Assembly (NCBI GenBank): GCA_937888365.1
Contig: CALBFA010000104.1
Span: 3,649-67,648, forward strand
Length of the DNA stretch: 64,000 nt
Direction of reading: 5' to 3'
DNA from: an uncultured Fidelibacterota bacterium
Lineage (GTDB): Bacteria; Fidelibacterota; UBA8477; JABMPR01
In this document: positions 25,185-50,620 of the stretch, piece after piece
Position numbering within the stretch: the stretch's first letter is position 1
How the letters are laid out: the number at the start of each line of letters is the position of its first letter
Position numbers and translations under genes: made by a program
The notes under the pieces: generated by a model
What the model saw: the letters and a program-made list of their open reading frames with translations, nothing else
The model's database searches: none
What the model was told of the DNA's origin: nothing

Positions 25185-25204
25185 CTTTGAAGAGGAATAG
25201 AAAA

Positions 25205-26533
25205 ATGAAAATTAAAATAAGTCAAATCATATTAATCAGTCTTGTATTTACATCAGGACTCTTGGCCCAAAGTACTGCCAGCGCCCTGTTTTTAATGGTA
25301 TCACCTGGTGCCCGTGCTGCAGGAATGGGTGAAGCACAGGTCGCTGTTGCAAACGATAGCTATGCCTCATATTGGAATCCTGCTGGCATGGCGTTTCAAA
25401 AAGGTTACGAGGCATCACTTATGCATGTTCAATGGCTCCCAGGCCTTGCTGATGACATGTATTATGATTTCGTGGGTGGAAGAGTGCCCTATAAAGATGT
25501 CGGCGTTTTTGGTGGACATATTATCTACTTAAATGCTGGAGAACAAATCTGGACCAATGCCCAAAATGAAGTACTTGGATCATTTTATACGTATTTTACG
25601 GCTGCGGCAGGAAGCTTTGCAACCATGCTTTCTGAAAAATCTGCAATCGGTCTAAATTTAAAAATAGTTTATCAGCATTTGGCTGACCCTGATATTTACG
25701 TCGGTACAGAGAAAACAAACCCTACAGCAACATCCTATGCATTTGATGTTGGCTACTTAAAAAAAGATATATTTAATCGCATCGATTTTGGTTTGATGAT
25801 CTCCAATATCGGTCCCAAAGTTATTTTTAATGACGAAGCACAAGCTGACCCAATGCCGACAAATTTTAAGGCAGGTTTAAATGTTGCGGTAATTAAGGAT
25901 ACCTATAATAAACTAAATATTACTTATGATATTAACAAAATGCTCGTTGCATCCTACCCTGCAATGGATTGGGATAACGACGGCTTTGTTGGTGGATATG
26001 ATGAAGAGAAACGCAGTTATATTATCAATGGTAGTGTTGACAAAGGTGACTTTAATAGCGATGGACAAAAAGAAATCGCCCATACGGATTCATGGTATGC
26101 TGCTTTAATCACATCTTGGCTTGATGATTGGTATCTTGGCGGAAATAGAGATTTAGACGGTAATCACATCATTGGTGGATATACTGTTGTTGGCGATTCA
26201 ACAGTTGCTACAACTGGAATAGGATATGGTGAAGCAGGCTACGGCGCATATAATGAATTGGGCAAAAAAGAAGTCGGCAATAAAGATGACTATACTTTCA
26301 CCAATGAGCTCGAATCTATCGTTCACAATGTTGGTATCGAATACTGGTATAATGACATTTTTGCAGTACGAGGTGGTTTTTACTATGACCAACTTGGTAA
26401 AATTTCGGCTCCTACTTATGGTCTTGGTCTCCGTTATGCAAATTATGGCTTTGATTTTGGCTACACTGATGGAAAAGAAGGTCATCCTCTTACCAATACG
26501 ATGAGATTTTCCCTTACAATAGCTTTCGATTAA
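25205..26533 (+). CDS. porV: Type IX secretion system outer-membrane shuttle protein PorV (LptO), FadL-like beta-barrel
   Basis: A signal peptide and the N-terminal PorV signature (GMGEAQVAVANDSYASYWNPAGMAF) are present, and a T9SS CTD cargo gene lies immediately downstream. The ATG at 25205 with an RBS is preferred over the TTG at 25187. Confidence 0.75.
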   Translation: MKIKISQIILISLVFTSGLLAQSTASALFLMVSPGARAAGMGEAQVAVANDSYASYWNPAGMAFQKGYEASLMHVQWLPGLADDMYYDFVGGRVPYKDVGVFGGHIIYLNAGEQIWTNAQNEVLGSFYTYFTAAAGSFATMLSEKSAIGLNLKIVYQHLADPDIYVGTEKTNPTATSYAFDVGYLKKDIFNRIDFGLMISNIGPKVIFNDEAQADPMPTNFKAGLNVAVIKDTYNKLNITYDINKMLVASYPAMDWDNDGFVGGYDEEKRSYIINGSVDKGDFNSDGQKEIAHTDSWYAALITSWLDDWYLGGNRDLDGNHIIGGYTVVGDSTVATTGIGYGEAGYGAYNELGKKEVGNKDDYTFTNELESIVHNVGIEYWYNDIFAVRGGFYYDQLGKISAPTYGLGLRYANYGFDFGYTDGKEGHPLTNTMRFSLTIAFD

Positions 26534-26542
26534 TCACTTTTT

Positions 26543-29356
26543 ATGGTCAATTTGCAACCTCATAAAATAGGAATTCTATTTTTAATTCTGCTCGGAATTA
26601 TTCTTCCAAACCTTGCATTTTCAGAAGATTATCAACTTGTTGGAATACGTATTGACTTTAACCTAGATGAAGATTTGGCAACGCCGGGGAATGGTAAATT
26701 CGTAAGTACCCTTCCAGATGTTGAAATTTGCTCTGACTTTATTTACGATGAACCTCCTCATGACAAATCATATTTTCAATCTCATTTCCAAGCAGCTAAA
26801 AATTACTGGGAAAAAGTCTCGAATAATCAACTCACAATTTCTAAAATGGATGTATTCCCTGCAGGTATCCATCAAGTTTATTCAACGGATACTACCATGC
26901 TGTCATTCCATCCATTCCTCGAAGATTATGATGAAACCGAGCTTCTCTTTAAACTTGCGAAACAAGCTATTCTACTTTCAGATGATGATGTTGATTATAC
27001 GCAATATAATACCGTCATCGTTTTTCATGCAGGATTAGGCGGCGATTTCGATTTCGTACTGGATCCGACACCAGGTTCAATTCCATCAGCATATTTAAAT
27101 CATGATGACTTAAACGCCTATGGCGGTATCCACGTTGATAATATTGATATCGAATCTGTCATAATATTACCAGAATCTCAAAACTTTCTACAGTTCGAAG
27201 AAACGAAAGACCTTTTTGCTGATGCAACGGATCCTTGCTTTTATCAATTTGGATTAAATGGGTCGATGGCTCTAATGTTGGGTTTTCATTTCGGTCTCGA
27301 TCCCATGTTTGATACAAGTTCTGGGAAATCGCTTCTTGGGAAATTTGTATTAATGGATCAAGGGTCGAATAATTTCCATGGCATCGCGCCAGCGTACCCA
27401 AATCCATATACGCGCATCAAAAGAGGATGGATTACACCTCAAAATATTGGAATCGGTGATGAAGTTTCTCTAGCGATTAATTCTGACGTCGCGAAGCTCA
27501 ATATTAATGAGCATGAATATTATCTCATCGAAAATCATTTACGAAACTTTATTGATCCTTCCCAAATGATAGAAATTATCGATACGCTGCTCCAAGATAC
27601 CATATCGGTCTTGATTGATGTGAACGGCGTTATCCTAGATGTCGATGAGAATTCAGGTGGAATGCCGGGGAATGGATTGCTAATTTGGCATATTAATGAA
27701 AATGCTCGGTACACAGATGAAAATCCAAACGGTGGAGGAGTTCAGCTTGTTGATGTCGTAGAAGCTGACGGAGCACAAGACATTGGCTTTGAAAGTCAGC
27801 TTCTTTTCGCTGATTTTTTAACAACAGGTTGGTGGTTTGACTATTGGTTTGGTGGAAATAAGGGTTGGTTCGATCTCAATAAACGATATCCAATTATTGG
27901 CGATAGCTTATTAACCTTTAATAATGCTACGAATCCATCAACAAAAACTTCAGAGGGTTTACCAACGTATTTAGGTATTGAAAATATTTCGAGAGTTAGT
28001 TCGGTGATGACTTTTAATGTGACTTCGACACGGAAAATAAACACAGATTCGCTCTACAAAATTGCCGGAATATTCAAGAATATTGACAAAGAATTCATTG
28101 TTGAATTAGATGAAAATATGCATCAGTTAAATATGTATCTCATCGATGCTTTCAACATTCCATTACTTCAATCTTCGTTGACGATTCCAACAGTACTGGA
28201 CAATGATACACTTTTTATGAAGGATGAATTCCTATTTTTCCAAAATAATCAAATTTTAAGAATCTATAATTTGAAGACATTGGAATTTAATGCTTTTGAA
28301 GGCACTATTATTTCAGAACCTGCTTTAATGGACAGTATTTTTTATTTTGCAAAAACATTGAATAATAATACAACAAGTTATACAATTGATCAATCGACAT
28401 TACATGCCATTGACTCAACTTTAATGACCTCGGACAATGTAAAATTGATGCCTTATTATAAAGCTGATGGCGGAACGTCACTTGCTTATTTAATGGAATC
28501 TGAACTACATATTGGCAGTTCGGTGATTTCGTCAATTCATTCCGCAAAAAATATCAATATGGAAATAGGAAACGCCCATTTCTCTAAATTTATGGCCCTG
28601 ACAACAGGCGATGATCTATTACTTTTAGACGCTTTAGGAAATATTGAACTCACTTTGGAGAATGTGGAAAATTATTTGCCACTACCCATTAGCCAATCTC
28701 GTCTTGGTTTTATAACATGGAAAAATGACGAAATAAAAGCATTTGATTGGGATGGTCATTCCTTGTCAAATTTTCCAGTTCATATCGATGATATGATTGA
28801 TGATGTTTTGATTTCTATCAACAACCATACGAATGAAGCGAACATTATAGTATTATTTGTAGATGCTTATATCGTCATCGATATCAACGGAAAAATAGTT
28901 GATAAAGCTTATACGGGTTTTAATGCCGATGTGTTTGGTAAATATTTATTTTTGTCCGATGGCTCAAGTTTAATGTCGTTTCCCTTCCTGGATAATTCTG
29001 ATTATTTGTGGGAAACGCCAAAACAAGTCAGCGCTCATTACGTCCTTGCGAATGAAACATTTTCCGCAGATTTGTTAGACAAAAGCAAAACATATAATTA
29101 TCCAAATCCAGTCGATGGTTCTTTCACAACGATTCGCTCGTGGGTAGGTGATGCATCAGCAATGTCTATTGAATTCTATAGCTTAACGGGGCATCTCGTG
29201 GATAAAGTATCATTATCCGATCTAAATCGAAATGCTGTCAATGAATGGGATTGGAATGTTTCAGACATTCAAAATGGCGTCTATTACGCAAATATTCGCG
29301 TAAAGGCATCCAATAGGGAAGAGAATAAGATTATTAAAATAGCCATCACGCATTAG
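26543..29356 (+). CDS. Large secreted T9SS cargo protein with a C-terminal sorting domain (type A CTD); N-terminal region possibly M6/InhA-like but lacking HExxH
   Basis: A signal peptide is present. The last ~80 aa (NYPNPVDGSFTTIRSWVGDASAMSIEFYSLTGHLVDKVSLSDL...VYYANIRV...KIIKIAITH) match the Por_Secre_tail pattern. No zinc-binding motif was found. Confidence 0.65.
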   Translation: MVNLQPHKIGILFLILLGIILPNLAFSEDYQLVGIRIDFNLDEDLATPGNGKFVSTLPDVEICSDFIYDEPPHDKSYFQSHFQAAKNYWEKVSNNQLTISKMDVFPAGIHQVYSTDTTMLSFHPFLEDYDETELLFKLAKQAILLSDDDVDYTQYNTVIVFHAGLGGDFDFVLDPTPGSIPSAYLNHDDLNAYGGIHVDNIDIESVIILPESQNFLQFEETKDLFADATDPCFYQFGLNGSMALMLGFHFGLDPMFDTSSGKSLLGKFVLMDQGSNNFHGIAPAYPNPYTRIKRGWITPQNIGIGDEVSLAINSDVAKLNINEHEYYLIENHLRNFIDPSQMIEIIDTLLQDTISVLIDVNGVILDVDENSGGMPGNGLLIWHINENARYTDENPNGGGVQLVDVVEADGAQDIGFESQLLFADFLTTGWWFDYWFGGNKGWFDLNKRYPIIGDSLLTFNNATNPSTKTSEGLPTYLGIENISRVSSVMTFNVTSTRKINTDSLYKIAGIFKNIDKEFIVELDENMHQLNMYLIDAFNIPLLQSSLTIPTVLDNDTLFMKDEFLFFQNNQILRIYNLKTLEFNAFEGTIISEPALMDSIFYFAKTLNNNTTSYTIDQSTLHAIDSTLMTSDNVKLMPYYKADGGTSLAYLMESELHIGSSVISSIHSAKNINMEIGNAHFSKFMALTTGDDLLLLDALGNIELTLENVENYLPLPISQSRLGFITWKNDEIKAFDWDGHSLSNFPVHIDDMIDDVLISINNHTNEANIIVLFVDAYIVIDINGKIVDKAYTGFNADVFGKYLFLSDGSSLMSFPFLDNSDYLWETPKQVSAHYVLANETFSADLLDKSKTYNYPNPVDGSFTTIRSWVGDASAMSIEFYSLTGHLVDKVSLSDLNRNAVNEWDWNVSDIQNGVYYANIRVKASNREENKIIKIAITH

Positions 29357-29361
29357 ACATA

Positions 29362-32300
29362 ATGAGAAATAATATTTCGTTTAAAATACTAAGTTTACTT
29401 GTATCCGTATCAACTATTGTGTTTGGGCAATATGGATATAATCATCCAGAATTAGTATGGAATACCATTGAAGGCGAGCATTTTATTGTTCATTATCATC
29501 AAGGCACTGAATGGACGGCTAATGAGGCACTTTTTGTAGCAGAAGACATATATCCTGCAATTACAGGACTTTACGGCTATGAACCTGAGTCAAAAACGCA
29601 TCTCATTATCAAAGATACTGATGATTTTGCCAACGGCGGTGCTTATTATTTTGATAATAAAATTGAAATTTGGGCGATGCCTCTAGATTACGAATTGCGG
29701 GGATCGCACTACTGGCTGCGCGATGTCATTTCTCACGAATTTACACACATTATTAGCTTGAGAGCTTCACGAAAATTAAGTGGTAATATGCCTGCAGGTT
29801 ATTTCCAAATTGTTCAATACGAGCCTGACAAGCGCGATGACGTGCTTTACGGCTACCCAAACGGGCTTATAGCGTATCCATTGCCGAGTGTTACCGTGCC
29901 AATGTGGTGGGCAGAAGGGATCGCACAACATCAATCCAATGACAAACGTTTTGATTATTGGGATTCTGTACGTGATATGTTAACCCGTGATAGAATTCAT
30001 CACGGAAAACTATTCACATTTGCCGAAATGGATGGATTCGGAAAAGAAGGAATAGGCAACGAAAGTGTTTATAATCAAGGATTTATGTTTGTCAATTATC
30101 TCGCAAAAAGGTTCGGAGAACAAGTATTACAAGACATCACCAACTATATTTCCAATCCAATGTCTTTTAATTTTTATGCGGGTATTGCGTCCGTAACAGG
30201 TCATTCTGCTCAATCGCTCTATGATGATTGGGTTCAAGAAATGAATCTTGACTACGAAAGTATTCTCAAATCACGTTCCCTCTCCAATATTAATATGATT
30301 CAAAAAGAAGGCATTGAAAATAGAGATCCTAAAATTCGTCCTGAGACATCAGAATTAACCTATATATCGAATTCTGGGCAATCTTATATGTCTTTGACAC
30401 ATCTAGAAAAGTATGTCGATGGTGAACATACTGAATTAGTCTTATCTGCCGAAGGATATGATTGGTCGCCGAATGGAAACGAACTCGTCGTCGTTAAAAA
30501 AGAATTTTATGATGGCCCATTTCCAGGCTCTGAAAAGCATGATCATTCGCTTATCCCACATGAAACATGTGAACGTTGTTTAGCTTTTCATTATTCGGGG
30601 TCAAAATATCGTGATGTTTTTATCTATTCTGGTGAAGATTTTAAAGATGAAATTCAAATTACATCTGGAGCTCGTGCAAAATATCCAGCTTGGAGTCCTA
30701 AGGACAGTTTAATCGCGTTTATAAATTTGCGTGATGGAACAAACAATATTTGTACCGTCGAATCGAAAGAAAATGGTGTTATAATTCAGCTCACAGATTT
30801 CCTCCCCGGAACCCAAGTTTATACGCTCAATTTCTCTCCAGATGGAAGACACATTATTTATGACTATACACGGGGATTTAATCGCGATATCGCCATATTA
30901 GACATCAAAACACGCGAAATTGAAATCGTTACGAATCAAAAATGGGACGAACGGATGCCTTATTGGGCAAATGATTCGACAGTGTATTATTCAGATGACA
31001 GAACAAGTATTTTTAATATTTATCAATACAATCTTAACTCAAAAGAATTAACCCAAATAACGAATGTCGTTGGTGGAGCCTTTACACCTTATCTTGACAA
31101 TGATACGCTATACTTTTCGTTATTTGATGATTGTGGATTTAATATTGTTTCTCTCGAGAAAAACGAATTTAATAATATGAGTTCTGAAATTTCAGATGTT
31201 TACACTAATCGCATTTTAGACGTAAAGTGGGAAGCCCACCAAACAACGAAAAATCAACATCCTTATACAATTCAATATGGTCCAATGTTTTTGGTGCCGC
31301 GTGTTCAAATCGATATTGATCAAAATAAGCACAAGACGAATCCTAAAATCGGTATGTATTTTTTCTCTAATGAGATTTTAAATAATTATACCGTATTAGG
31401 TGGTGCGGATATTGGTCTCAACCGGGATATGGATTTATTCTTTATCACCGAATTTAAGAAATTATGGCCAACACTTTCTGCCGAAGTGTATTATATGAAA
31501 CGCCACACGCGAGAAGAGCTTATTTATGGCGTCTATCCTGCCGAGGCCGATTTAACTTTTACACTTGTTCAAGGCGTCTTTTCAGCCATCGGTGTTTTGC
31601 CAGGCGGACATCTTATTACAGCTGATATTAAAGCTGCAAATTACAATACAGCAATCGGAACACATTTAGTTGAAGGCCTCCAAGGTGGCGGAACGAGTTA
31701 TGATTATTTCCGAGGATATGATTATGGTCTACGATGGAAACTCAATCGAATTGCTCTTCGTCGCGAGCGAAATATAAATCCATCAGGATATACAATTGAC
31801 ACCAGCATACGGAAAAATCATCATGATTTTCTGGACACCTATGGCTATAACGAAGATACGGGATTATGGAGCGATATTTACAATACTTTTGTATATCATA
31901 ATATCAATATTTCCGCATTCTATGGTCATTTAATGTCAAACAAAAAGAATGTTGTATTGTCCAGTAAACTTGATTTAGCTTTTATTGATGACTCTCATAT
32001 TGACGATTTCTTTTGGGAATTTGGTGGCGGGATGCCTGGTTTAAGGGGTTATCCATTTTATAGTATGAATGGAACGCGCAAAGTTTTATCCTCCACGATG
32101 CTTCGATTCCCTTTAGCCCGCGACATATTTAAAAAGTTTGGACATTATACACTACAAAATATTTATGTGGGTTTTGAAGGACAAATTGGTAGTACATGGC
32201 AAGGACAAAATGCTAAATGGAATGACTCAGATTTAAAACAAATTATTTCAAATGATGTCTCTAGCGCCGTCTGGCTACGAGATTTAGGAAGTCAACTTCG

Positions 32301-32460
32301 TGTGAGTGGATTCTCCTTTTATGCCTTTCCAACGGCTTTTGAATTTGGAGCATATTATGGAATTGATACCTATCATTGGGAAGATTCAAACTCTACCGAT
32401 ACAATTGAGTACGGTAAAGAATGGCGTTATTATTGGAAATTACTTTTCCAATTTGATTAA
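29362..32460 (+). CDS. Outer-membrane fusion protein: N-terminal HExxH metallopeptidase-like domain + TolB-like (PD40) beta-propeller + C-terminal Omp85/surface-antigen-like beta-barrel
   Basis: A signal peptide is followed by VISHEFTHIISL (HExxH). PD40-like repeats follow (WSPNGNELVVV, AWSPKDSLIAFI, FSPDGRHIIYDY). The C-terminus carries GGGMPGLRGYPFYSMNGTRKVLSSTMLRFPL (Omp85 GG..RGY....ElRFPl-like) and ends in an aromatic-rich beta-strand. Confidence 0.55.
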   Translation: MRNNISFKILSLLVSVSTIVFGQYGYNHPELVWNTIEGEHFIVHYHQGTEWTANEALFVAEDIYPAITGLYGYEPESKTHLIIKDTDDFANGGAYYFDNKIEIWAMPLDYELRGSHYWLRDVISHEFTHIISLRASRKLSGNMPAGYFQIVQYEPDKRDDVLYGYPNGLIAYPLPSVTVPMWWAEGIAQHQSNDKRFDYWDSVRDMLTRDRIHHGKLFTFAEMDGFGKEGIGNESVYNQGFMFVNYLAKRFGEQVLQDITNYISNPMSFNFYAGIASVTGHSAQSLYDDWVQEMNLDYESILKSRSLSNINMIQKEGIENRDPKIRPETSELTYISNSGQSYMSLTHLEKYVDGEHTELVLSAEGYDWSPNGNELVVVKKEFYDGPFPGSEKHDHSLIPHETCERCLAFHYSGSKYRDVFIYSGEDFKDEIQITSGARAKYPAWSPKDSLIAFINLRDGTNNICTVESKENGVIIQLTDFLPGTQVYTLNFSPDGRHIIYDYTRGFNRDIAILDIKTREIEIVTNQKWDERMPYWANDSTVYYSDDRTSIFNIYQYNLNSKELTQITNVVGGAFTPYLDNDTLYFSLFDDCGFNIVSLEKNEFNNMSSEISDVYTNRILDVKWEAHQTTKNQHPYTIQYGPMFLVPRVQIDIDQNKHKTNPKIGMYFFSNEILNNYTVLGGADIGLNRDMDLFFITEFKKLWPTLSAEVYYMKRHTREELIYGVYPAEADLTFTLVQGVFSAIGVLPGGHLITADIKAANYNTAIGTHLVEGLQGGGTSYDYFRGYDYGLRWKLNRIALRRERNINPSGYTIDTSIRKNHHDFLDTYGYNEDTGLWSDIYNTFVYHNINISAFYGHLMSNKKNVVLSSKLDLAFIDDSHIDDFFWEFGGGMPGLRGYPFYSMNGTRKVLSSTMLRFPLARDIFKKFGHYTLQNIYVGFEGQIGSTWQGQNAKWNDSDLKQIISNDVSSAVWLRDLGSQLRVSGFSFYAFPTAFEFGAYYGIDTYHWEDSNSTDTIEYGKEWRYYWKLLFQFD

Positions 32461-37863: not shown

Positions 37864-38091
37864 ACATCCATATTCAACTATATAAGTTTATTTAAACCTT
37901 GCCACTAGGGTAGGGTAAAATTATTATAATCGCGTATGATAAAAACAAGTAAATACAGTAAATACAATAATATTAATAAGCAAAAGATAACCCGGCTGTC
38001 AATGCGTCAGGTAAATATTTTCTTAATTCAATTCGTAAATTAATTCAATACTCAAAAAGGTATTCAAGCATATCCAGGAGAAACACGCAGA

Positions 38092-39833: not shown

Positions 39834-40247
39834 ATGATCAGTATGACCAAATCGGAAAAAACAGCACTCCTTTTTTTAACGATAACTTTTATTATTGGTT
39901 TAGCTATTCGACAGTATCAGAACATTCAGGTTAAAAAATCGTTTTCAAAAGAAAATCCTGTCGAAATAATAATCGAATCTTCTAAAATCAATAATATTGA
40001 GAATATAGAATCAGATGATAAATCCGTTGCGAATACTCAAGATAAACAACAGGTTATTAATATAAATACAGCTGATATTTCAGCCTTATCTTCTTTAAAA
40101 GGCATTGGGCCATCTTTGGGAAAAAGAATTATAGAATATCGAAATACTCATGGCGCCTTTGCAAATAAAGAAGATATTATGCTCGTGAAAGGCATTGGCG
40201 AAAAACTATATCAAATAAATACAAATGCTATTACTATACATGACTAA
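39834..40247 (+). CDS. comEA: ComEA-like helix-hairpin-helix DNA-binding protein
   Basis: An N-terminal TM anchor is followed by an HhH motif pair (ININTADISALSSLKGIGPSLGKRIIEYR...KEDIMLVKGIGEKLY). Confidence 0.75.
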   Translation: MISMTKSEKTALLFLTITFIIGLAIRQYQNIQVKKSFSKENPVEIIIESSKINNIENIESDDKSVANTQDKQQVININTADISALSSLKGIGPSLGKRIIEYRNTHGAFANKEDIMLVKGIGEKLYQINTNAITIHD

Positions 40248-40256
40248 GGAGGCCTT

Positions 40257-42470
40257 GTGCAAAGGGACATATTTTCAAATCATACTTACAATACTGCTGT
40301 AATTGTTGTACTCATTATAGCTTTTTTTGCTGTTTTCTTTTTACCTACTTCGATTTGGAATGATGAAGATAGTCTTAGAGACGAATCGCGCTTTAGAATG
40401 AATGCTATTACGCAAGCCGAGCGTTTGAACTATATGTTAACCGAAAATTTTACCTCCGATGTTAACAAGTTATTTGCCACTTTATCACGCGTTAGAGACT
40501 CTGTTGAAAAAGCTGAATCAGATACTAATTACACGTATTTAGGTTTGAAAAAGTTGGGTTTTGAAAACCAAACCATTAATATTAATGTAACAGATGAATT
40601 TCTAAAAATGTACAATGATTATCATTTACGAATTTTTGAAAGAACAAAACCTAGCCACTATTTCAATGATGAGGAAACCAACAGATTTGTAGAATTAGCG
40701 TTTTCGAAGGTAAGCGATACATTTATTGGGAATCAAACCATCGAGTTTGATAGCGCGTCCTATCAAGTAAGTATTCCAGAGAAATTTGAGATATTATATC
40801 AAAATATTAATTTTCAACTATTCAATGTTTTAACAAAATCAGTAACGAAAGATTCCTCCTTTGCAAACTCATTGGTTCGTGCTGTAATTGATACTTTAAG
40901 GAAGAATCCTACACTAAAAGAAACGATATCATTCTCTAATTTATGGACAGCTGCTGTTCCAATTGATTATAGCGTCAGAGCTAATTTCTCAGAAAATTTT
41001 GAAAATTCAAAGGCTCCATTAAAGAAGAATTTTAAAATTAATGCCATCGATTCGATAAATTTTGGTAAAGAGTTGTGGAATATTGCACTCGATACATTTT
41101 TGACATATCAAGATATTCCCGAGGGATTCAATATTATTTTTGTTGACAGTTTAGGCGATTCTTCCAATGTCCCTGTCAAAATTGACTATGAAGGCATGAT
41201 GGCTTCTGTCGATAAAAGACGCAATGTATTGTATCAAAATATTTCGGGTGGATTTAATGAACCCGCTCCAACCATTGCGAAACGAATGATTGCGATGGTT
41301 TTAGACTCACTTGATAATCCTGCGTTCTCAGGCGAAGGCACTATTCAGATGGATTTAACCGACGTTGAATTTTCTATTCGTCTTGATCCAGTCATCATAA
41401 AAAATAAAAATAAATTCTATCTCAATATTTGTACGGACTATTTGCAACCTCGCTTGAGTACCGTTGACAATTATGCTGCAAGTTTTGAGGCCGTAGAGCA
41501 TATTGCGGATTCCCTCATGAAGAAAAATGATTATTATGGGAGTCAAGTTGTTAAAACCGTCGAAGACATATTTCATATTAATATTTATAAATCGTTTTTT
41601 AGAGACTATGATAATATGAATATCGCAGCGATTCAAATGCTTACTCAAAACTATAGCAATAATTTTATGCATAATTATACAGTTCTTCAAAAATTACAGG
41701 ATAGTTTATCCATCGATACAATTGATTTTAATGGGGAGAAAACTATCTATTTGGCAGGTGATACTTTGTCGATACTTGTAAAACCTGACTATGCTGCCGT
41801 ATATGATTCAATGTTTGTTGTCTATCGAGACACAGTGATAAAAATTCAAGACACGACTTTCTTTGGTGTCTGGGATAGAGGAAGCATTACGACGACAACG
41901 ATTCCTGATTCTCTAATGTTACCATTTCTTGTTCAATCCGATTCGGGACAAATCTATAAATATGATTTTGCCGACTCGACTCTCGAAATAGATGTTCCTG
42001 ATTTCGGGGCAGATAAAGTTGAACGGGCATTCTTTAAGGGTGATTTATATCTCGTTGGATTTAATAAAGATAGCCTCGTTTACGATGCTCAAATAATTCT
42101 AAACGATGAATTATTTGTCGAAGATAGCTCTCAGTTGCATGAATATAGTGTGGTGTCGCCTCAGTTCGTTTCGGGCACGCTTACCAAAAAAAGCTTAATG
42201 GCAAAAGACTCTTTTTATGCGTGGATTGATACTTCTGTAGCACCAAAGTTTACGAAAATAACATTGGGTACCTATTATACTCCAACGAACGAATGGCAAT
42301 TTTGCCCCGTTTCAAAACGACCCTTTCGCGTGACAATTCGTAATAATGTAAACTTAACTGTTGAATCGCCGTTGGATCATCCCATCGAAACATCACGGTA
42401 TTTATTCTTTACTCAAATTGATACATTTCATGGACAAATCGTCGATGGTGAAATGAGTTGGGTAAAATAA
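40257..42470 (+). CDS. Hypothetical 737-aa protein with a single N-terminal TM helix and a large extracytoplasmic domain
   Basis: The ORF has one TM helix near residue 12-30 and no motifs I recognise. It is the first gene of a tightly packed trio. Confidence 0.5.
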   Translation: MQRDIFSNHTYNTAVIVVLIIAFFAVFFLPTSIWNDEDSLRDESRFRMNAITQAERLNYMLTENFTSDVNKLFATLSRVRDSVEKAESDTNYTYLGLKKLGFENQTININVTDEFLKMYNDYHLRIFERTKPSHYFNDEETNRFVELAFSKVSDTFIGNQTIEFDSASYQVSIPEKFEILYQNINFQLFNVLTKSVTKDSSFANSLVRAVIDTLRKNPTLKETISFSNLWTAAVPIDYSVRANFSENFENSKAPLKKNFKINAIDSINFGKELWNIALDTFLTYQDIPEGFNIIFVDSLGDSSNVPVKIDYEGMMASVDKRRNVLYQNISGGFNEPAPTIAKRMIAMVLDSLDNPAFSGEGTIQMDLTDVEFSIRLDPVIIKNKNKFYLNICTDYLQPRLSTVDNYAASFEAVEHIADSLMKKNDYYGSQVVKTVEDIFHINIYKSFFRDYDNMNIAAIQMLTQNYSNNFMHNYTVLQKLQDSLSIDTIDFNGEKTIYLAGDTLSILVKPDYAAVYDSMFVVYRDTVIKIQDTTFFGVWDRGSITTTTIPDSLMLPFLVQSDSGQIYKYDFADSTLEIDVPDFGADKVERAFFKGDLYLVGFNKDSLVYDAQIILNDELFVEDSSQLHEYSVVSPQFVSGTLTKKSLMAKDSFYAWIDTSVAPKFTKITLGTYYTPTNEWQFCPVSKRPFRVTIRNNVNLTVESPLDHPIETSRYLFFTQIDTFHGQIVDGEMSWVK

Positions 42471-42484
42471 GATACGCCTGAACG

Positions 42485-43387
42485 ATGCTATCGGTTTTAT
42501 TTACTGAATCAGAATTACGCTTTTCTCAAGTCGTAGATTTTAGAGGCGAACCCTATGTCGAAAGTTTTGGGGTTATTCCGTTTAGTGACATTATTAAAGT
42601 TGATAACGCTAGTATAACACTAACGTGGGCCGAAAGTCTCAAAAACTTACACAAAAAATTAGGATATCCAGAAAAGAAAATAATTGCTGTGTTTCCAGCC
42701 CAGTCATTTTCTTATTGTTTTCAAATGGTCGATGCGGCGTTACCAGAGAATGAGAAAATTAGATTTTTAAATTGGCAAGGCCATGAAATACTGGATTTTA
42801 ACAATGACTCCGACACCTTAGTTCATCAAAAATTATCGCGTGTTGATAGTAGTGAATTATTCATTTCTGTAGCGTTTCCCACAAGCCTAAAGGACAATTT
42901 ATCAACCGCTTGTGAACGAAGTGAATTTCAAATAACGGAGCTTATTTTTGATATTCAAGGTATGGGTCAACTATTACAATATGGTCAATTATTTGATCAT
43001 GAAAATACATATTGCTTGAATATCGACAAACATTCGAATCATTATTTAATAAAATTTCATCAAAATGAACTCGCTGGCGTAATTGATTTAAAACTGCAAA
43101 ATAATGGCGTTTTGCGTCCCTTGTTGTATAGAGGGAATCAAATCAAAGCGGAATCAGAAGTTAAATATTTTAGCGACGTCATTAAGGGTGTGGCCGATTT
43201 TAAAGATAGTTCTGATAGAAGAGTCATCTTTAATGGTAGAAATCCGGATGAAGATAGCTCTCATGCCTACGGCTATGATTTTTCTGGAATATTTAATTTT
43301 AGACATTCAATCGAAGGAAAAAATCTCAATCAATTTGCCTCTACCTTAGGAGCTTTAGTTCCAGGAATATTAGTGCGGTTTGAATGA
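42485..43387 (+). CDS. Hypothetical 300-aa soluble protein (possible PilM/FtsA-like actin-fold N-terminus, speculative)
   Basis: The protein has no TM segment. The N-terminus LSVLFTESELRFSQVVDF...PYVESFGVIPFSDII resembles the first strands of PilM-type proteins only loosely. Confidence 0.45.
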   Translation: MLSVLFTESELRFSQVVDFRGEPYVESFGVIPFSDIIKVDNASITLTWAESLKNLHKKLGYPEKKIIAVFPAQSFSYCFQMVDAALPENEKIRFLNWQGHEILDFNNDSDTLVHQKLSRVDSSELFISVAFPTSLKDNLSTACERSEFQITELIFDIQGMGQLLQYGQLFDHENTYCLNIDKHSNHYLIKFHQNELAGVIDLKLQNNGVLRPLLYRGNQIKAESEVKYFSDVIKGVADFKDSSDRRVIFNGRNPDEDSSHAYGYDFSGIFNFRHSIEGKNLNQFASTLGALVPGILVRFE

Positions 43388-44406
43388 AAATTGATTTTTG
43401 GAATATTAGCTATCGTATTGAACCCGTTCCCTTTGGAAAAAGTTTTAATAAAGGTGATGGCTTTGATGGTGAGGCTTTAGATGAAGACGTAATTCCAACC
43501 TTGTCTAAAGTCATTGAAAGACGAAAAAATAACGCACAAAAGAAACAATTAAAGACCAAAACAAACAAACCAGGTAAGTCGAAAAAGAAACCCGTAATAT
43601 GGCTTATATTGCTTGTATTCATTGCTTCTATTTGGATGAATATTGATAAACTTAAAACTTATTATTTCAGTAAAATCAACAGCTCAAGTCAAAATATCAA
43701 TGTTATAGACAGCTTAATACTTGCTGATAGTTTGTCCAAAGTTATTGGGAATGAAGTTTTAGATGACGATGTCTTCAACCAGCTTATGCCCGTAAGCGAC
43801 TCACTCGATAAGTTGAGCGAGAAAGTGTTAGACACGACTGAAAATGCCATCCAAAAAGATGAAAACATCCTACTTGAGCCGGAAAAAATATATGATTCGA
43901 GACTCAGTTATAATCAATTTAGTTTTATGAGTAAAATACTATGTAACACGGTTGATGCCCAATCCATAGATTTAAACTATCTACAAAATAAACTAGATAT
44001 TTCACTTCAAAATTATAAGAATAGTACAGCAATAGAAAAAATCCTAGCAGCAACATTCGAGAGACAGCCCCATTTAAATATCACGGGCAACAATCTTGAT
44101 ATTGCAGGTGATGCAAAATTTAAATTACATCAAATATCAAATAATAATCAATTATTCACTTTAATTGATGTATTGGATGCTTTCATTTTACCGTACGAAA
44201 ATATGCTTATGAGCATTGATATGCCAATACCTCAGCCAGGCTCAAACCAGATCATTACGCTTGATTTCAATGGGGCGCAAATGGAAATGTGTTCTATGTT
44301 CTATGATTGGTCATTAATCAACGCAGAATTGACCGTAAAATCAATTAAAGCTAGAGGTCATAAAAACGATTTAAAAACGACACTCGTTTTTGAATTCATG
44401 GAATAG
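43384..44406 (+). CDS. Hypothetical 340-aa bitopic membrane protein (lysine-rich cytoplasmic N-terminus, one TM helix, periplasmic C-terminus)
   Basis: An ATGA overlap with the upstream gene suggests translational coupling. The single TM helix is VIWLILLVFIASIWMNI (~residues 70-90). Confidence 0.45.
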   Translation: MKIDFWNISYRIEPVPFGKSFNKGDGFDGEALDEDVIPTLSKVIERRKNNAQKKQLKTKTNKPGKSKKKPVIWLILLVFIASIWMNIDKLKTYYFSKINSSSQNINVIDSLILADSLSKVIGNEVLDDDVFNQLMPVSDSLDKLSEKVLDTTENAIQKDENILLEPEKIYDSRLSYNQFSFMSKILCNTVDAQSIDLNYLQNKLDISLQNYKNSTAIEKILAATFERQPHLNITGNNLDIAGDAKFKLHQISNNNQLFTLIDVLDAFILPYENMLMSIDMPIPQPGSNQIITLDFNGAQMEMCSMFYDWSLINAELTVKSIKARGHKNDLKTTLVFEFME

Positions 44407-44412
44407 GATTTC

Positions 44413-44952
44413 ATGTCGAGTATCGTAGCTGGGAAGTTTAAGGGACATCCTCTACCCAATACAAAATTGGGTCAGGTCCGGCCAACTAGCAACCGTACAA
44501 GAACTATTTTATTTGATACATTAGGGTCCTTACAGGGTGACAATGTTTTAGATTTATTTAGTGGTCTAGGAACGCTTGGATTTGAAGCTATGAGTCGTGG
44601 AGCCGAAAAATTGACCAGCATTGATCAGGATTATAAATACATCAAATTACAAAAAGAATGGATTTCATTACATAAGCTCGACATTGCATTTTCATCTCGA
44701 AAAGGCAATGTAAATCATATTATAAAATCTCTAGACAATAAATATGATACCATATTTGTTGACCCACCTTATCAATTTGAGCCAGACAACGATTTTTGGC
44801 GTAATTTATTTAATCTTGTTTCAGAGAATGGAAGAGTCGTTTATGAAGCCGGAACTGAATCTAAATTGAATATCCCGGATGAAATAATATCATTACTCAT
44901 AAAAGAAAAAACAGCCGGCCAAACGCGTTTGCTATTTTTTGAGAAAGGATAA
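44413..44952 (+). CDS. rsmD: 16S rRNA (guanine966-N2)-methyltransferase RsmD
   Basis: The motifs DLFSGLGTLGFEAMSRGA and FVDPPY are present. The conserved rsmD-coaD pairing supports the call. Confidence 0.8.
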   Translation: MSSIVAGKFKGHPLPNTKLGQVRPTSNRTRTILFDTLGSLQGDNVLDLFSGLGTLGFEAMSRGAEKLTSIDQDYKYIKLQKEWISLHKLDIAFSSRKGNVNHIIKSLDNKYDTIFVDPPYQFEPDNDFWRNLFNLVSENGRVVYEAGTESKLNIPDEIISLLIKEKTAGQTRLLFFEKG

Positions 44953-44954
44953 AT

Positions 44955-45437
44955 ATGAAAAAAGCAATTTATCCAGGTACATTTGACCCGATTACACTTG
45001 GACACATTGACATAATCGAGCGATCGGCTTTGCTATTTGATGAAGTCGTTGTCGCAATCGGAAAAAATGTAGGGAAGAAACCTCTTTTCTCGGAAGAAGA
45101 GCGAATGGACATGATTCAACGTACGACCAAACATATTCCAAATGTAACAGTCGATTCATTCTCGGGTCTTGTCGTGGATTATGCTCGCGATATTCAAGCA
45201 AATGTTATGATTCGTGGATTACGCGCGATGAGTGACTTTGAGTTCGAATTTCAAATGGCTTTAGTCAATCGAACTTTGAATAATAATATGGTGCAAGTAT
45301 TCCTTATGCCTCATGAGGCTTACACGCATCTTAATTCTACGGTCGTTCGAGAGGTGGCCAGTTTTAACGGCGATACAAGTCCATTTGTATCAGCATATGT
45401 TGTAAAAAAATTGAAAGAGAAGTATAAAGATTTATGA
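44955..45437 (+). CDS. coaD: Phosphopantetheine adenylyltransferase
   Basis: The N-terminus AIYPGTFDPITLGHIDII carries the T/HxGH motif, and the length of 160 aa fits CoaD. Confidence 0.9.
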   Translation: MKKAIYPGTFDPITLGHIDIIERSALLFDEVVVAIGKNVGKKPLFSEEERMDMIQRTTKHIPNVTVDSFSGLVVDYARDIQANVMIRGLRAMSDFEFEFQMALVNRTLNNNMVQVFLMPHEAYTHLNSTVVREVASFNGDTSPFVSAYVVKKLKEKYKDL

Positions 45438-46417
45438 GTTTTTTAAATTCAATTCACGAAAAAGCAAAACGTGCGAACAAAGTAGTCATACTTCCTGAAG
45501 GCGAAGATCCACGAATCATTAAAGCCGCCCGTGTTTTAATGGATGAGGGTATTTGCGCTGTTACTATTTTAGGGAAAAAGAATACAATATTATTGAGCGC
45601 CAGTGATGCAGGCATCAATACAAACGGCATCGAGATTATCGACCCGAGTAATGATTTACAATTAAATCGTTACGCCGATGATTATTACGAAAATAGAAAA
45701 CACAAGGGTGTTAAGCCATCCGAAGCACTTACAACACTTCGCGACAATGTTTTTTTTGCAGCTGCAATGCTTAAAGACAATAGAGCCGACGTATGTATAG
45801 CAGGTGCGACACACGCGACGTCTCATGTCATGCGAGCCGCTATTCAGATACTGGGTCTGAAGGAAGGTTTTCGAACTGTCTCAAGCTCCTTTATAATGAT
45901 GAGCCCCGATGAAGAACACATTTATTCTTTTGGTGACTGCGCCGTGATACCGAAACCAACAGTAGAACAATTAGCAGATATTGCCATTAGTTCGGCTGAT
46001 ACGTTTAGTAAACTCACAGGTAAAGTCGCCCAAGTTGCATTTTTGAGTTTTTCTACGAAAGGAAGCGCACTACATCCTGACGTTGATTTTGTTAAAAAAG
46101 CGATGAATATTGCTATTGAAAAAGCACCTAACTTGAACATTGACGGCGAATTGCAATTAGATGCTGCTATTGTGCCTTCTGTGGGCATTAAAAAGGCGAA
46201 GGGTAGCATGGTTGCGGGTAAAGCGAATGTTCTTGTATTTCCTGATTTAAATGCGGGAAATATCGGTTACAAGTTAACACAGCGATTAGGTGGCTTTGAA
46301 GCAATTGGCCCCATTATTCAAGGTCTGTCAAAGCCCATGCATGATTTAAGCCGTGGATGCTCTTGGGAAGATATTGTGAATTTATCATGCATTGCCATTA
46401 TTCAAGCTGGTCGTTAA
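45434..46417 (+). CDS. pta: Phosphate acetyltransferase (short-form PTA_PTB family)
   Basis: The protein matches PTA_PTB phosphotransacetylase features over its full length (~327 aa). No ackA gene lies adjacent. Confidence 0.8.
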   Translation: MSFLNSIHEKAKRANKVVILPEGEDPRIIKAARVLMDEGICAVTILGKKNTILLSASDAGINTNGIEIIDPSNDLQLNRYADDYYENRKHKGVKPSEALTTLRDNVFFAAAMLKDNRADVCIAGATHATSHVMRAAIQILGLKEGFRTVSSSFIMMSPDEEHIYSFGDCAVIPKPTVEQLADIAISSADTFSKLTGKVAQVAFLSFSTKGSALHPDVDFVKKAMNIAIEKAPNLNIDGELQLDAAIVPSVGIKKAKGSMVAGKANVLVFPDLNAGNIGYKLTQRLGGFEAIGPIIQGLSKPMHDLSRGCSWEDIVNLSCIAIIQAGR

Positions 46418-50574: not shown

Positions 50575-50592
50575 TCTCAAAAACATAAAAAT

Positions 50593-50620
50593 AAAGCCAC
50601 TCGTTATGAGTGGCTTTATT
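50593..50620. terminator. Bidirectional intrinsic terminator between convergent pckA and the EEP-family gene
   Basis: A perfect 10-bp inverted repeat (AAAGCCACTC-GTTAT-GAGTGGCTTT) is flanked by A/T runs on both sides. Confidence 0.7.

What the first reader, a model, noticed from the sequence alone, without database searches (positions are those of the whole stretch)
40257..44406. Three translationally coupled proteins of unknown function sit between comEA and rsmD
The three ORFs (737, 300 and 340 aa) are packed with gaps of 14 nt and a 4-bp ATGA overlap, so they read as a single operon downstream of comEA. The first has one N-terminal TM helix and a large extracytoplasmic domain. The second is soluble. 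The third is bitopic with a lysine-rich cytoplasmic N-terminus. I recognise no catalytic motifs in any of them. The topology pattern (soluble partner + bitopic partner + large periplasmic protein) resembles assembly platforms of pilus or secretion machines such as PilM/PilN/PilO or GspL-like. The ComEA neighbour hints at a DNA-uptake or envelope-spanning complex, but the sequences are too divergent to assign. They may form a novel envelope system.
Basis: inference. Interest (0 to 1): 0.65.

Follow-up and report, generated by a model that had tools for sequence, protein, structure and literature searches.

The report
PilM/PilN-like pair with novel periplasmic partner
Three adjacent genes conserved in uncultured marine Marinimicrobia encode a very distant look-alike of the pilus-machine scaffold pair PilM/PilN, plus a large, previously undescribed repeat protein that probably reaches across the periplasm; this is a new variant of a known kind of envelope scaffold, and what it serves is still unproven.

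Summary
There are three ORFs of 737, 300 and 340 aa, with a 14-nt gap and a 4-bp overlap, lying between an HHH/ComEA-type gene and rsmD. The topology is bitopic, soluble, bitopic. No Pfam, NCBIfam or PDB sequence search names any of them, and public records call them "hypothetical protein".

The block comEA-P1-P2-P3-rsmD recurs in all 42 judgeable loci (27 first-set, 15 metagenome), all from Candidatus (Neo)Marinimicrobiota where named. All three genes are under purifying selection (dN/dS 0.03-0.19).

An AlphaFold model of P2 (pLDDT 80-92) matches PilM best (Foldseek E 5e-14), then FtsA, then the cytoplasmic domain of GspL. P3 follows P2 with an overlap. It is N-in bitopic and has a conserved N-terminal peptide, M-[KR]-I-[DN]-L-[LR], that resembles the PilM-binding motif of PilN.

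P1 models well (pLDDT 78). It has a TM helix, a long helix, about 7 tandem ~65-aa helix-hairpin-helix modules (4 provably homologous) and a beta-rich C-terminus. It has no structural match in the PDB or BFVD.

Caveats: tight packing is the norm in this genome, no other pilus or secretion genes lie nearby, the P3 periplasmic fold is unresolved, and the P2-P3 contact is not shown.

Verdict: a PilM/PilN-like inner-membrane platform with a novel periplasmic partner. It is a new variant of a known kind.

The parts
39834..40247 (+). comEA-type gene (137 aa: N-terminal TM helix plus helix-hairpin-helix DNA-binding domain). It is the conserved upstream neighbour, 9 nt before P1.
   Evidence: Pfam HHH_3 E 6e-20; TIGR00426 54.8 bits against a cutoff of 53.1. 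TM helix at about residues 7-28. Present upstream of P1 wherever the locus extends that far.
40257..42470 (+). P1: 737-aa bitopic protein with no known family. It is the most conserved of the three (37-40% identity to orthologs).
   Evidence: AF2 mean pLDDT 77.8. No significant Foldseek match in the PDB or BFVD. No Pfam, NCBIfam or PDB sequence hit.
40293..40442 (+). P1 residues 13-62: TM helix (13-32) continuing into a long juxtamembrane helix (33-62). The helix extension is the best-conserved N-terminal stretch.
   Evidence: AF2 shows a single helix over residues 5-62. KD19 maximum 2.85 at residue 15. Window-to-ortholog identity is 58% for residues 33-62.
40443..41816 (+). P1 residues 63-520: about 7 tandem ~65-aa modules (helix, beta-hairpin, helix). 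Modules M1, M2, M6 and M7 are demonstrably homologous; M3-M5 have diverged.
   Evidence: AF2 secondary structure. hhalign between module profiles gives prob 90-96% and E 1e-6 to 6e-9, in register. A pooled-module HMM finds 4 strong copies per ortholog and none in other proteins.
41817..42467 (+). P1 residues 521-737: beta-rich C-terminal region. The last ~100 aa are highly conserved but poorly modelled.
   Evidence: AF2 shows strands over 521-703, with pLDDT <50 at 635-668 and 708-737. Identity is 52% for residues 635-737, against 31-39% for the modules.
42485..43387 (+). P2: 300-aa soluble protein with a PilM/FtsA/GspL-class actin-like fold. Residues 76-148 (nt 42710-42928) form a 1C-like insertion. 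The canonical phosphate-1 Asp-x-Gly motif is not conserved.
   Evidence: AF2 pLDDT about 80-92 over residues 1-300. Foldseek against the PDB: PilM 5eox/5eou/2ych/3jc8 at E 5e-14 to 3e-10; FtsA at 1e-10 to 1e-7; the cytoplasmic domain of EpsL/GspL at 3e-7 to 6e-6. Family alignment A2. No TM segment.
43384..43434 (+). P3 residues 1-17: conserved cytoplasmic N-terminal peptide (family consensus MKIDLRKDRGIL....F). It is the candidate PilN-like peptide that binds P2.
   Evidence: M1 and F17 are invariant; I3, D4, L5, G10 and L12 are >=90% conserved, in a protein that is otherwise ~19% identical. Compare Thermus PilN MVIRLNLLPKN (PMC6325625) and E. coli HofN MNPPINFLPWR.
43435..43653 (+). P3 residues 18-90: variable, Lys-rich cytoplasmic linker (18-70) followed by a single TM helix (71-90).
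43654..44406 (+). P3 periplasmic part: helical region with a conserved island at residues 125-150 (F-N-x-L-M-P...), then a C-terminal ~85-aa alpha/beta domain (256-340). The sequence pattern of that domain is compatible with two alpha-beta-beta motifs.
   Evidence: Alignment A3, conservation profile, and low-confidence AF2 secondary structure. The fold is not established.
44413..44952 (+). rsmD-type methyltransferase gene. It is the conserved downstream neighbour, 6 nt after P3 here and overlapping P3 by 4 nt in most orthologous loci.

Best explanation
P1, P2 and P3 are a lineage-restricted (Candidatus Marinimicrobia) inner-membrane platform. It is built on a very divergent PilM/PilN-type pair.

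P2 is a cytoplasmic actin-fold scaffold of the PilM/FtsA/GspL class. It probably no longer hydrolyses ATP.

P3 is its bitopic membrane tether. Its conserved N-terminal peptide is proposed to bind P2, as PilN binds PilM. Its periplasmic part (helices plus a small alpha/beta domain) is proposed to pair with P1.

P1 takes the place that PilO (and perhaps PilP/GspC) has in pilus and type II secretion machines. It is a new protein with a TM helix, a conserved juxtamembrane helix, about 7 tandem helix-hairpin-helix modules forming an elongated periplasmic strut, and a conserved C-terminal region that probably docks on an outer partner.

Shown: the P2 fold, the topologies, the P1 repeat architecture, conserved linkage and purifying selection.

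Inferred: the P2-P3 peptide contact, the P1-P3 pairing, and spanning of the periplasm.

The favoured but unproven purpose (about 0.35-0.4) is to act as the alignment/assembly platform of a type IV filament-like or DNA-uptake machine whose other parts are encoded elsewhere. This would fit the invariant ComEA neighbour.
For: - P2 fold: high-confidence AF2 model. The top Foldseek PDB matches are PilM from three species (E 5e-14 to 3e-10, prob 1.0, target TM up to 0.62). FtsA and cyto-GspL/EpsL come next.
- P3 gene position: it directly follows P2, overlapping it by 4 nt here and typically 11 nt in orthologs. Thermus pilM and pilN also overlap (PMC6325625).
- P3 topology: N-in bitopic.
- P3 N-terminal peptide: the first 17 residues are an island of conservation in a protein with ~19% overall identity. 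The peptide reads M-[KR]-I-[DN]-L-[LR], and MRINLLTD in L008. Documented PilN/HofN N-termini are IRLNLLP and INFLP.
- P3 C-terminus: the last ~85 residues have a helix-strand-strand-helix-strand-strand pattern. This is the topology that defines PilN/PilO/GspM cores (PMC5805733).
- P1 architecture: bitopic, with one helix over residues 5-62 like the TM plus coiled-coil of PilN/PilO, then repeats. Its juxtamembrane helix and C-terminus are its most conserved parts.
- Linkage: all three genes co-occur, in the same order and tightly coupled, in 27 of 28 first-set loci and in all 15 judgeable metagenome loci, at only 19-40% identity to the window.
- Selection: dN/dS 0.03-0.19.
Against: - No sequence-based method links any of the three to PilM, PilN, PilO, GspL or GspM.
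- The fused AF2 model did not dock the P3 N-terminal peptide on P2 (pLDDT about 40). That half had no alignment rows, so the test was weak.
- The P3 cytoplasmic tail is ~70 aa, against ~30 aa in PilN.
- The P3 periplasmic fold is not established.
- P1 gave no match to PilO/GspM or to anything else.
- No secretin, PilB/PilT ATPase, PilC or pilin gene was found in the 64-kb window or in ~10 kb beyond each end.
- The trio is embedded in a housekeeping block that is syntenic as a whole. Conserved adjacency, including that to comEA, is therefore weaker evidence of a functional link than it looks.
Confidence: 0.55

Rival explanations
1. An autonomous, Marinimicrobia-specific envelope-spanning structure. 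A PilM/PilN-type module has been exapted, without any type IV filament, to anchor the new P1 strut. The strut could serve, for example, as an envelope spacer or tether, or as a platform for another machine such as T9SS-related or peptidoglycan-related functions.
For: - No type IV filament genes lie nearby.
- P2 lacks the conserved phosphate-1 Asp/Gly of nucleotide-binding actin-fold proteins.
- P1 has no known structural or sequence relative.
- The family is detected only in this phylum.
- The organism uses a T9SS (PorV and a CTD-tailed cargo in the window).
Against: Every characterised PilM/PilN or GspL/GspM pair belongs to a type IV filament machine (established knowledge). Genes for such machines are often scattered, so absence from ~84 kb says little. 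The ComEA adjacency is invariant.
Confidence: 0.25
2. A divisome- or elongasome-associated pair of the FtsA/FtsN type. P2 would be an FtsA-like actin-fold protein recruited by the cytoplasmic tail of bitopic P3, with P1 as a periplasmic cell-wall-associated partner.
For: - FtsA structures are the second-best class of matches for P2 (E 1e-10 to 1e-7).
- FtsA binds the basic N-terminal tail of bitopic FtsN in the same IA-IC cleft that PilM uses for PilN (PMC7613929).
- P3 has a basic tail and a small C-terminal alpha/beta domain.
- ftsE and ftsX lie 2.4 kb upstream on the same strand, and mreBCD-pbp2-rodA is in the window.
Against: - PilM ranks above FtsA, with better target TM-scores (0.55-0.62 against 0.42-0.46).
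- P2 is 300 aa and ends right after the last core helix, so it has no linker or amphipathic membrane-targeting helix.
- No FtsA, SHS2_FTSA, FtsN or SPOR profile hit in any of 27 members.
- The genes are not in a dcw cluster.
- The P3 N-terminal motif resembles PilN, not FtsN.
Confidence: 0.12
3. The three genes do not form a functional unit. They would be unrelated lineage-specific genes that merely travel together inside a conserved, densely packed housekeeping block.
For: The whole 11-gene run is as tightly packed as the trio. Flanking genes are equally syntenic in all relatives. No trio-specific promoter or terminator is detectable.
Against: - The complementary architecture (PilM-like soluble protein, then a PilN-like bitopic protein with a conserved N-terminal peptide, plus a second bitopic protein with a conserved juxtamembrane helix) is what an interacting platform looks like.
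- The P2-P3 overlap is conserved.
- The trio stays intact where the surrounding block has changed: hrcA is lost, pta is inserted, and the downstream genes differ in the window lineage.
Confidence: 0.08

Closest known systems
PilM-PilN(-PilO-PilP) alignment subcomplex of type IVa pili and the Thermus DNA translocator (PDB 2YCH, 5EOU, 3JC8)
   Same: P2 is structurally closest to PilM. The next gene overlaps it and encodes an N-in bitopic protein with a conserved N-terminal M-[KR]-I-[DN]-L-[LR] peptide like the I-N-L-L-P motif of PilN. A second bitopic protein with a TM helix plus a long helix is present, as PilO is.
   Different: - No sequence-profile membership.
- P2 is ~50 aa shorter than PilM and lacks the conserved phosphate-1 Asp/Gly.
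- The P3 cytoplasmic tail is ~70 aa rather than ~30 aa.
- The 'PilO position' is taken by a 737-aa protein with ~7 tandem modules, and it lies upstream of the PilM-like gene rather than downstream.
- No pilP or pilQ follows, and no pilus genes are nearby.
GspL-GspM(-GspC) assembly platform of type II secretion systems (PDB 1YF5, 1W97, 4PHT)
   Same: The cytoplasmic domain of GspL/EpsL is an actin-like scaffold, and it matches P2 significantly (E 3e-7 to 6e-6, rmsd ~4.2 Å over ~200 columns). Like GspL (from established knowledge), P2 appears to lack a nucleotide-binding site and much of subdomain 2B.
   Different: GspL is a single polypeptide (cytoplasmic domain, TM helix and periplasmic domain). 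Here these functions are split between P2 and P3, as in PilM/PilN. No gspE, gspF, gspD or pseudopilin genes are nearby.
FtsA-FtsN (divisome)
   Same: An actin-fold protein with a 1C subdomain binds the cytoplasmic tail of a bitopic protein in the IA-IC cleft (PMC7613929). FtsA structures match P2 at E 1e-10.
   Different: P2 has no C-terminal amphipathic helix, no FtsA profile hit and no dcw context. The P3 N-terminal motif is PilN-like.
E. coli HofMNOPQ ('DNA utilization proteins') and H. influenzae ComABCDE
   Same: These are PilMNOPQ-type platforms dedicated to DNA uptake that work together with a ComEA-type periplasmic DNA receptor. HofM-Q are annotated this way. The window trio sits directly after a comEA-type gene.
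   Different: hhalign of the P2 and P3 family profiles against HofM, HofN and HofO gives no significant match. No HofP/HofQ equivalents are adjacent.

Membership tests
PilM (type IV pilus alignment subcomplex) | Actin-like (ASKHA) fold with an FtsA-type 1C subdomain; closest structural relatives are PilM structures | tested here: met
   AF2 model of P2 has pLDDT 80-92. Foldseek top 9 hits are PilM (E 5e-14 to 5e-11), and 3jc8 PilM gives 3e-10.
PilM (type IV pilus alignment subcomplex) | Matches the curated sequence models for PilM (Pfam/NCBIfam) | tested here: not met
   No hit for the window protein or for any of 27 family members at E<=10. The profile against PDB sequences found nothing. hhalign against E. 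coli HofM gave E 0.43.
PilM (type IV pilus alignment subcomplex) | Nucleotide-binding motifs (phosphate-1 D-x-G on strand 1; conserved Lys, Thermus K26) | tested here: inconclusive
   By inspection of A2, strand 1 reads MLAIHIS or MLSVLFT, with no conserved Asp/Gly. A Lys/Arg at position 12 is conserved. No residue-level structural alignment was available.
PilM (type IV pilus alignment subcomplex) | Binds the N-terminal peptide of PilN in the 1A-1C groove | tested here: inconclusive
   The fused P2+P3 AF2 model left the P3 N-terminus undocked (pLDDT ~40), but the P3 half had no alignment rows.
PilM (type IV pilus alignment subcomplex) | Encoded with pilN-pilO-pilP-pilQ or other type IV filament genes | tested here: not met
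   Only a PilN-like gene follows. No secretin, ATPase, platform or pilin genes lie in the window or ~10 kb beyond. The rest of the genome could not be searched.
PilN | Bitopic N-in protein encoded directly after (and often overlapping) pilM | tested here: met
   One TM helix at ~71-86 with a +7 N-flank. The overlap with P2 is 4 nt here and typically 11 nt in orthologs.
PilN | Highly conserved N-terminal motif (I-N-L-L-P type) on a short (~30 aa) cytoplasmic tail | tested here: inconclusive
   The conserved peptide M-[KR]-I-[DN]-L-[LR]..G.[IL]L....F (MRINLLTD in L008) resembles Thermus IRLNLLP and HofN INFLP. However, Pro is absent, the tail is ~70 aa, and a 25-column profile found nothing in the PDB.
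PilN | Periplasmic coiled-coil plus a core of two alpha-beta-beta motifs; matches the Pfam PilN model | tested here: inconclusive
   The sequence and low-confidence secondary-structure pattern of residues 256-340 is compatible. No Pfam PilN hit in 27 members. No confident 3D model was obtainable.
PilO / GspM (candidate identity of P1) | Short cytoplasmic N-terminus, one TM helix, coiled-coil, then one core of two alpha-beta-beta motifs (~200 aa in total) | tested here: not met
   The N-terminal part fits (helix 5-62). However, P1 is 737 aa with ~7 helix-hairpin-helix modules and a beta-rich C-terminus. There is no Foldseek, Pfam or PDB sequence match to PilO/EpsM. Domain-level fold comparison was not possible.
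FtsA | C-terminal linker plus amphipathic membrane-targeting helix; FtsA/SHS2 sequence models; dcw-cluster context | tested here: not met
   P2 ends at residue 300, right after the last core helix. No FtsA profile hit. The neighbours are comEA and rsmD, not ftsQ and ftsZ.
GspL | Single polypeptide: cytoplasmic actin-like domain, TM helix and periplasmic ferredoxin-like domain | tested here: not met
   P2 has no TM segment. The membrane and periplasmic parts are on a separate protein, P3. Structural similarity to cyto-EpsL/GspL is significant but ranks below PilM and FtsA.

The most novel reading that the evidence does not exclude
The trio is a self-contained, phylum-specific envelope-spanning apparatus. 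An ATP-binding-deficient PilM/PilN module would have been exapted away from type IV filaments to anchor P1. P1 would be a ~20-nm periplasmic strut built from a repeat module with no known structural relative, and its conserved C-terminus would engage an outer-membrane or cell-wall partner. This would be the first PilM/PilN-type platform working outside a type IV filament machine, and it would define a new periplasmic repeat fold.
Probability: 0.25. Interest if true: 0.7.

Novelty: new variant of a known kind. Interest (0 to 1): 0.5.

Why it matters
PilM/PilN (and GspL/GspM) platforms are the universal cytoplasm-to-periplasm couplers of type IV pili, competence pseudopili and type II secretion. 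Here a pair that only structure prediction can recognise is locked to a large new periplasmic repeat protein, and the arrangement is conserved across an abundant, uncultured marine phylum.

If the module belongs to a DNA-uptake or pilus machine, it extends such machines to Marinimicrobia. It would also show how far the platform can diverge, with PilO (and perhaps PilP) replaced by a poly-module strut.

If it works alone, it would be the first exaptation of this module outside type IV filaments.

In either case, three "hypothetical protein" families present in dozens of MAGs gain a testable annotation, and P1 defines a new repeat module worth solving.

Tried and rejected
**Sequence searches that found nothing**
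- Pfam and NCBIfam scans of the three proteins, and of all 27-29 members of each family at E<=10. There was no recurrent family; the scattered weak hits (FragX_IP, Arteri_nucleo and others) are noise.
- phmmer and profile searches against PDB sequences for P1, P2, P3, the P3 N-terminal peptide and the pooled P1 module.
- The word-indexed homolog search found only P2 itself.
- Exhaustive phmmer of concatenated P2+P3 against 1.8 billion representatives found only four P2 relatives and no P3 relative.
- hhalign of the P2 and P3 profiles against E. coli HofM, HofN and HofO: not significant.

**Wasted or blocked steps**
- A concatenated profile (P2 + P3 + P1 C-terminus) given to the word-indexed search returned nothing, probably because low-complexity words swamped it. 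That search was wasted.
The P3 half therefore had no alignment rows, and its model is poor.

**Other negative results**
- The sigma-70 promoter and terminator scan was not above shuffled expectation.
- Literature searches for pili or competence in Marinimicrobia found nothing relevant.
- Context extension beyond both window ends found no pilus or divisome genes.

**Interpretations rejected**
- FtsA/FtsQ identity (see the membership test).
- P1 as a pseudopilin: its N-terminus lacks the G/F-T-L-I-E prepilin motif (by inspection).
- Chance ORFs: rejected by the dN/dS values.

Full report
**Observation**

There is a 14-nt gap between P1 and P2 and a 4-bp overlap between P2 and P3.

The upstream gene (39834-40247) has an N-terminal TM helix and an HHH_3 domain, and it passes the ComEA helix-hairpin-helix repeat model. 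The downstream gene is an RsmD-type methyltransferase.

Hydropathy confirms the stated topologies:
- P1 has one TM helix near its N-terminus.
- P2 has none.
- P3 has one at ~71-86, behind a Lys-rich flank of net charge +7, so its N-terminus is cytoplasmic.

None of the three matches any Pfam or NCBIfam model or any PDB sequence.

**Is the packing meaningful?**

Less than it looks. Among 48 same-strand junctions in the window, the median spacing is 6 nt and 33 are <=20 nt. The trio lies inside an unbroken, equally tight 11-gene run: grpE-dnaJ-comEA-P1-P2-P3-rsmD-coaD-pta-Zn-ribbon-IDH.

A consensus scan shows no internal promoter or terminator above shuffled expectation. The best sigma-70-like site lies in the 228-nt gap before grpE, and the only strong hairpin terminator is at 50590-50620.

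So the three genes are probably co-transcribed, but with many housekeeping genes. Spacing alone does not define a dedicated operon.

**Relatives and conservation**

Word-indexed search found only P2 itself. It found five P1 relatives at 37-40% identity, one of them from a Candidatus Marinimicrobia MAG. Exhaustive phmmer against 1.8 billion representatives found four P2 relatives (23-31% identity) and no P3 relative.

A P1-profile scan of GTDB species genomes gave 26 loci. All are (Neo)Marinimicrobiota MAGs, a few with doubtful 'Lentisphaeria' labels. A metagenome scan gave 17 more loci.

All 28 loci of the first set carry comEA (where the contig reaches), P1, P2 and rsmD in that order. P3 was recovered in 27 of them (in L009 only a 185-aa ORF lies before rsmD). 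The spacing there is:
- P1-P2 gaps of 12-32 nt;
- a P2-P3 overlap of typically 11 nt;
- a P3-rsmD overlap of 4 nt.

All metagenome loci long enough to judge show the same block.

Window-to-ortholog identity:

| Protein | Identity |
|---|---|
| P1 | ~38% |
| P2 | ~24% |
| P3 | ~20% |
| DnaJ | 54% |
| RsmD | 43% |
| CoaD | 72% |

The trio therefore evolves faster than its neighbours. It is nevertheless clearly constrained, with dN/dS of 0.04-0.14 (P1), 0.03-0.08 (P2) and 0.07-0.19 (P3).

The trio stays intact although the window lineage has lost hrcA, gained pta and has different downstream genes. All public copies are named 'hypothetical protein'. No paralogs occur elsewhere in the window or in the loci examined.

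**P2**

An AF2 model of P2 was made as the first 300 residues of a fused P2+P3 chain, with 18 P2 orthologs as alignment rows. Its pLDDT is ~80-92.

Foldseek matches against the PDB:

| Match | E-value | Note |
|---|---|---|
| PilM (P. aeruginosa, T. thermophilus, M. xanthus) | 5e-14 to 3e-10 | prob 1.0, target TM up to 0.62 |
| FtsA | 1e-10 to 1e-7 | target TM 0.42-0.46 |
| Cytoplasmic domain of EpsL/GspL | 3e-7 to 6e-6 | rmsd ~4.2 Å over ~200 columns |
| More distant ASKHA proteins | weaker | |

The secondary-structure order is beta-beta-beta-alpha-beta, then an inserted beta-alpha-beta-beta-alpha unit at residues 76-148, then beta-alpha, then a second RNase-H-like half. This fits a 1A/1C/2A arrangement with a reduced 2B (my reading).

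P2 has no TM helix and no C-terminal extension that could be an FtsA-type membrane-targeting helix. The family alignment shows no conserved Asp-x-Gly on strand 1. P2 is therefore probably a non-hydrolysing scaffold like cyto-GspL. This last point is an inference, because no residue-level structural alignment was available.

**P3**

P3 is the least conserved protein, but it has two islands of conservation:
- The first 17 residues. M1 and F17 are invariant, and I3, D4, L5, G10 and L12 are >=90% conserved. The consensus is MKIDLRKDRGIL....F.
- A periplasmic helix around F-N-x-L-M-P (residues 125-150).

The N-terminal peptide, especially MRINLLTD in L008 and MKIDLLKD in L010, resembles two PilN-type N-termini. 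One is T. thermophilus PilN (M-V-I-R-L-N-L-L-P-K-N, read from the cloning primer in PMC6325625). The other is E. coli HofN (MNPPINFLPWR).

PilM is known to bind exactly this conserved PilN motif (PMC5805733), and pilM and pilN overlap in Thermus.

The resemblance is qualitative. A 25-column profile finds nothing in the PDB. The cytoplasmic tail is ~70 aa rather than ~30 aa. The fused AF2 model did not dock the peptide, although the P3 half had no alignment rows (pLDDT <50).

The last ~85 residues show a helix-strand-strand-helix-strand-strand pattern in the alignment and in the low-confidence model. This is compatible with the two alpha-beta-beta motifs of PilN/PilO/GspM cores, but it is not established.

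**P1**

With a 16-sequence alignment, AF2 gives a mean pLDDT of 77.8. The architecture is:
- one helix spanning residues 5-62 (TM helix plus juxtamembrane extension);
- about 7 tandem modules of ~65 aa (helix, beta-hairpin, helix);
- a beta-rich C-terminal region.

Profile-profile comparison of module slices shows that M1, M2, M6 and M7 are homologous in register (prob 90-96%, E 1e-6 to 6e-9). M3-M5 have diverged. A pooled-module HMM finds the module only in P1.

The most conserved parts are the juxtamembrane helix (58% identity between window and orthologs) and the last ~100 residues (52%). The latter are poorly modelled. This pattern is typical of segments that fold on a partner, which is an inference.

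P1 is thus a new family. Whether its module is related to alpha-beta-beta (PilO/GspM) or ring-building/BON-type modules remains open.

**Context**

The window holds housekeeping genes: Der, mreBCD-pbp2-rodA, SHMT, BamD, ftsEX, grpE-dnaJ, coaD, pta, IDH and pckA. It also holds T9SS-related genes (a PorV-like gene and a CTD-tailed cargo), a LolA-like gene and an FtsX-like permease. No type IV filament, type II secretion or dcw genes are present in the window or in ~10 kb beyond either end. The literature searched says nothing about pili or competence in this phylum.

**Interpretation**

The best-supported reading is a PilM/PilN-type inner-membrane platform. P2 is a cytoplasmic actin-fold scaffold. 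P3 is its bitopic tether through a conserved N-terminal peptide. P1 is a second bitopic partner occupying the PilO (and possibly PilP/GspC) role, but it is built as a long periplasmic strut of a new repeat module.

The P2 fold, the topologies, the repeat architecture, the conserved linkage and the purifying selection are shown. The protein-protein contacts and the spanning of the periplasm are inferred.

Which machine the platform serves is open. A type IV filament or DNA-uptake machine is favoured for two reasons. Every known PilM/PilN or GspL/GspM pair belongs to one, and a ComEA-type DNA receptor gene is the invariant neighbour. E. coli's PilMNOPQ homologs are annotated as DNA utilization proteins. 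The adjacency sits inside a block that is syntenic as a whole, however, so it is weak evidence.

The rivals are:
- an autonomous lineage-specific envelope structure that exapted the module;
- an FtsA/FtsN-like division accessory. FtsA is the second-best structural class, and FtsA-FtsN uses the same cleft (PMC7613929). P2 lacks FtsA's membrane-targeting helix, profile match and genomic context;
- mere synteny without functional linkage.

**Verdict**

It is unproven for P1 and for the ComEA/DNA-uptake link, and the operon argument from spacing is weak.

This is a new variant of a known kind of system, carrying one genuinely new protein family (P1). Interest is moderate, at about 0.5.

Noticed in passing
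window 25187-32460 (+): A PorV-like gene (448 aa), a 937-aa protein with a T9SS C-terminal sorting domain, and a 1032-aa protein with no Pfam hit are packed with 5-9-nt gaps. This may be a T9SS cargo/shuttle cluster that includes an uncharacterised giant protein.
   Followed up: no
window 18116-21816 (+): Two ORFs (377 and 424 aa) with no Pfam match abut with a 0-nt gap. A TPR protein overlaps the second by 28 nt. This is another unannotated, tightly coupled set.
   Followed up: no
window 17208-18035 (+): A 275-aa ORF carries only the Glyco_transf_5 (N-terminal) domain of a starch/glycogen synthase. Relatives encode full-length 471-474-aa glgA next to glgC. This may be a truncated or split gene.
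   Followed up: no
window 37864-38091 and 45434-46417: Compared with all related loci, the window lineage lacks hrcA between ftsX and grpE, leaving a 228-nt gap that holds the best sigma-70-like promoter match. It also has pta inserted between coaD and the Zn-ribbon gene.
   Followed up: partly
window 42159-42467 (P1 residues 635-737): The last ~100 residues of P1 are among its most conserved parts (52% identity to orthologs, with many invariant residues), yet AF2 gives pLDDT <50 for 635-668 and 708-737. This may be a partner-dependent docking segment.
   Followed up: partly
L008, L009, L027, L032, L033 (genome contigs): Five MAGs titled 'uncultured Lentisphaeria bacterium' (binchicken assemblies) carry the same Marinimicrobia-type comEA-P1-P2-P3-rsmD block. 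Their taxonomic label looks wrong.
   Followed up: no
window 4558-5409, 6447-8033, 59447-60658 (+): Three further ORFs (283, 528 and 403 aa) have no Pfam match at E<=1e-5. The 528-aa ORF precedes and overlaps a GWxTD-domain protein.
   Followed up: no
L009 10085-11444: In this one locus the P3 position has no single intact ORF. Only a 185-aa ORF ends at rsmD, after an 801-nt stretch following P2. This may be a frameshift, an assembly error or a pseudogene.
   Followed up: no
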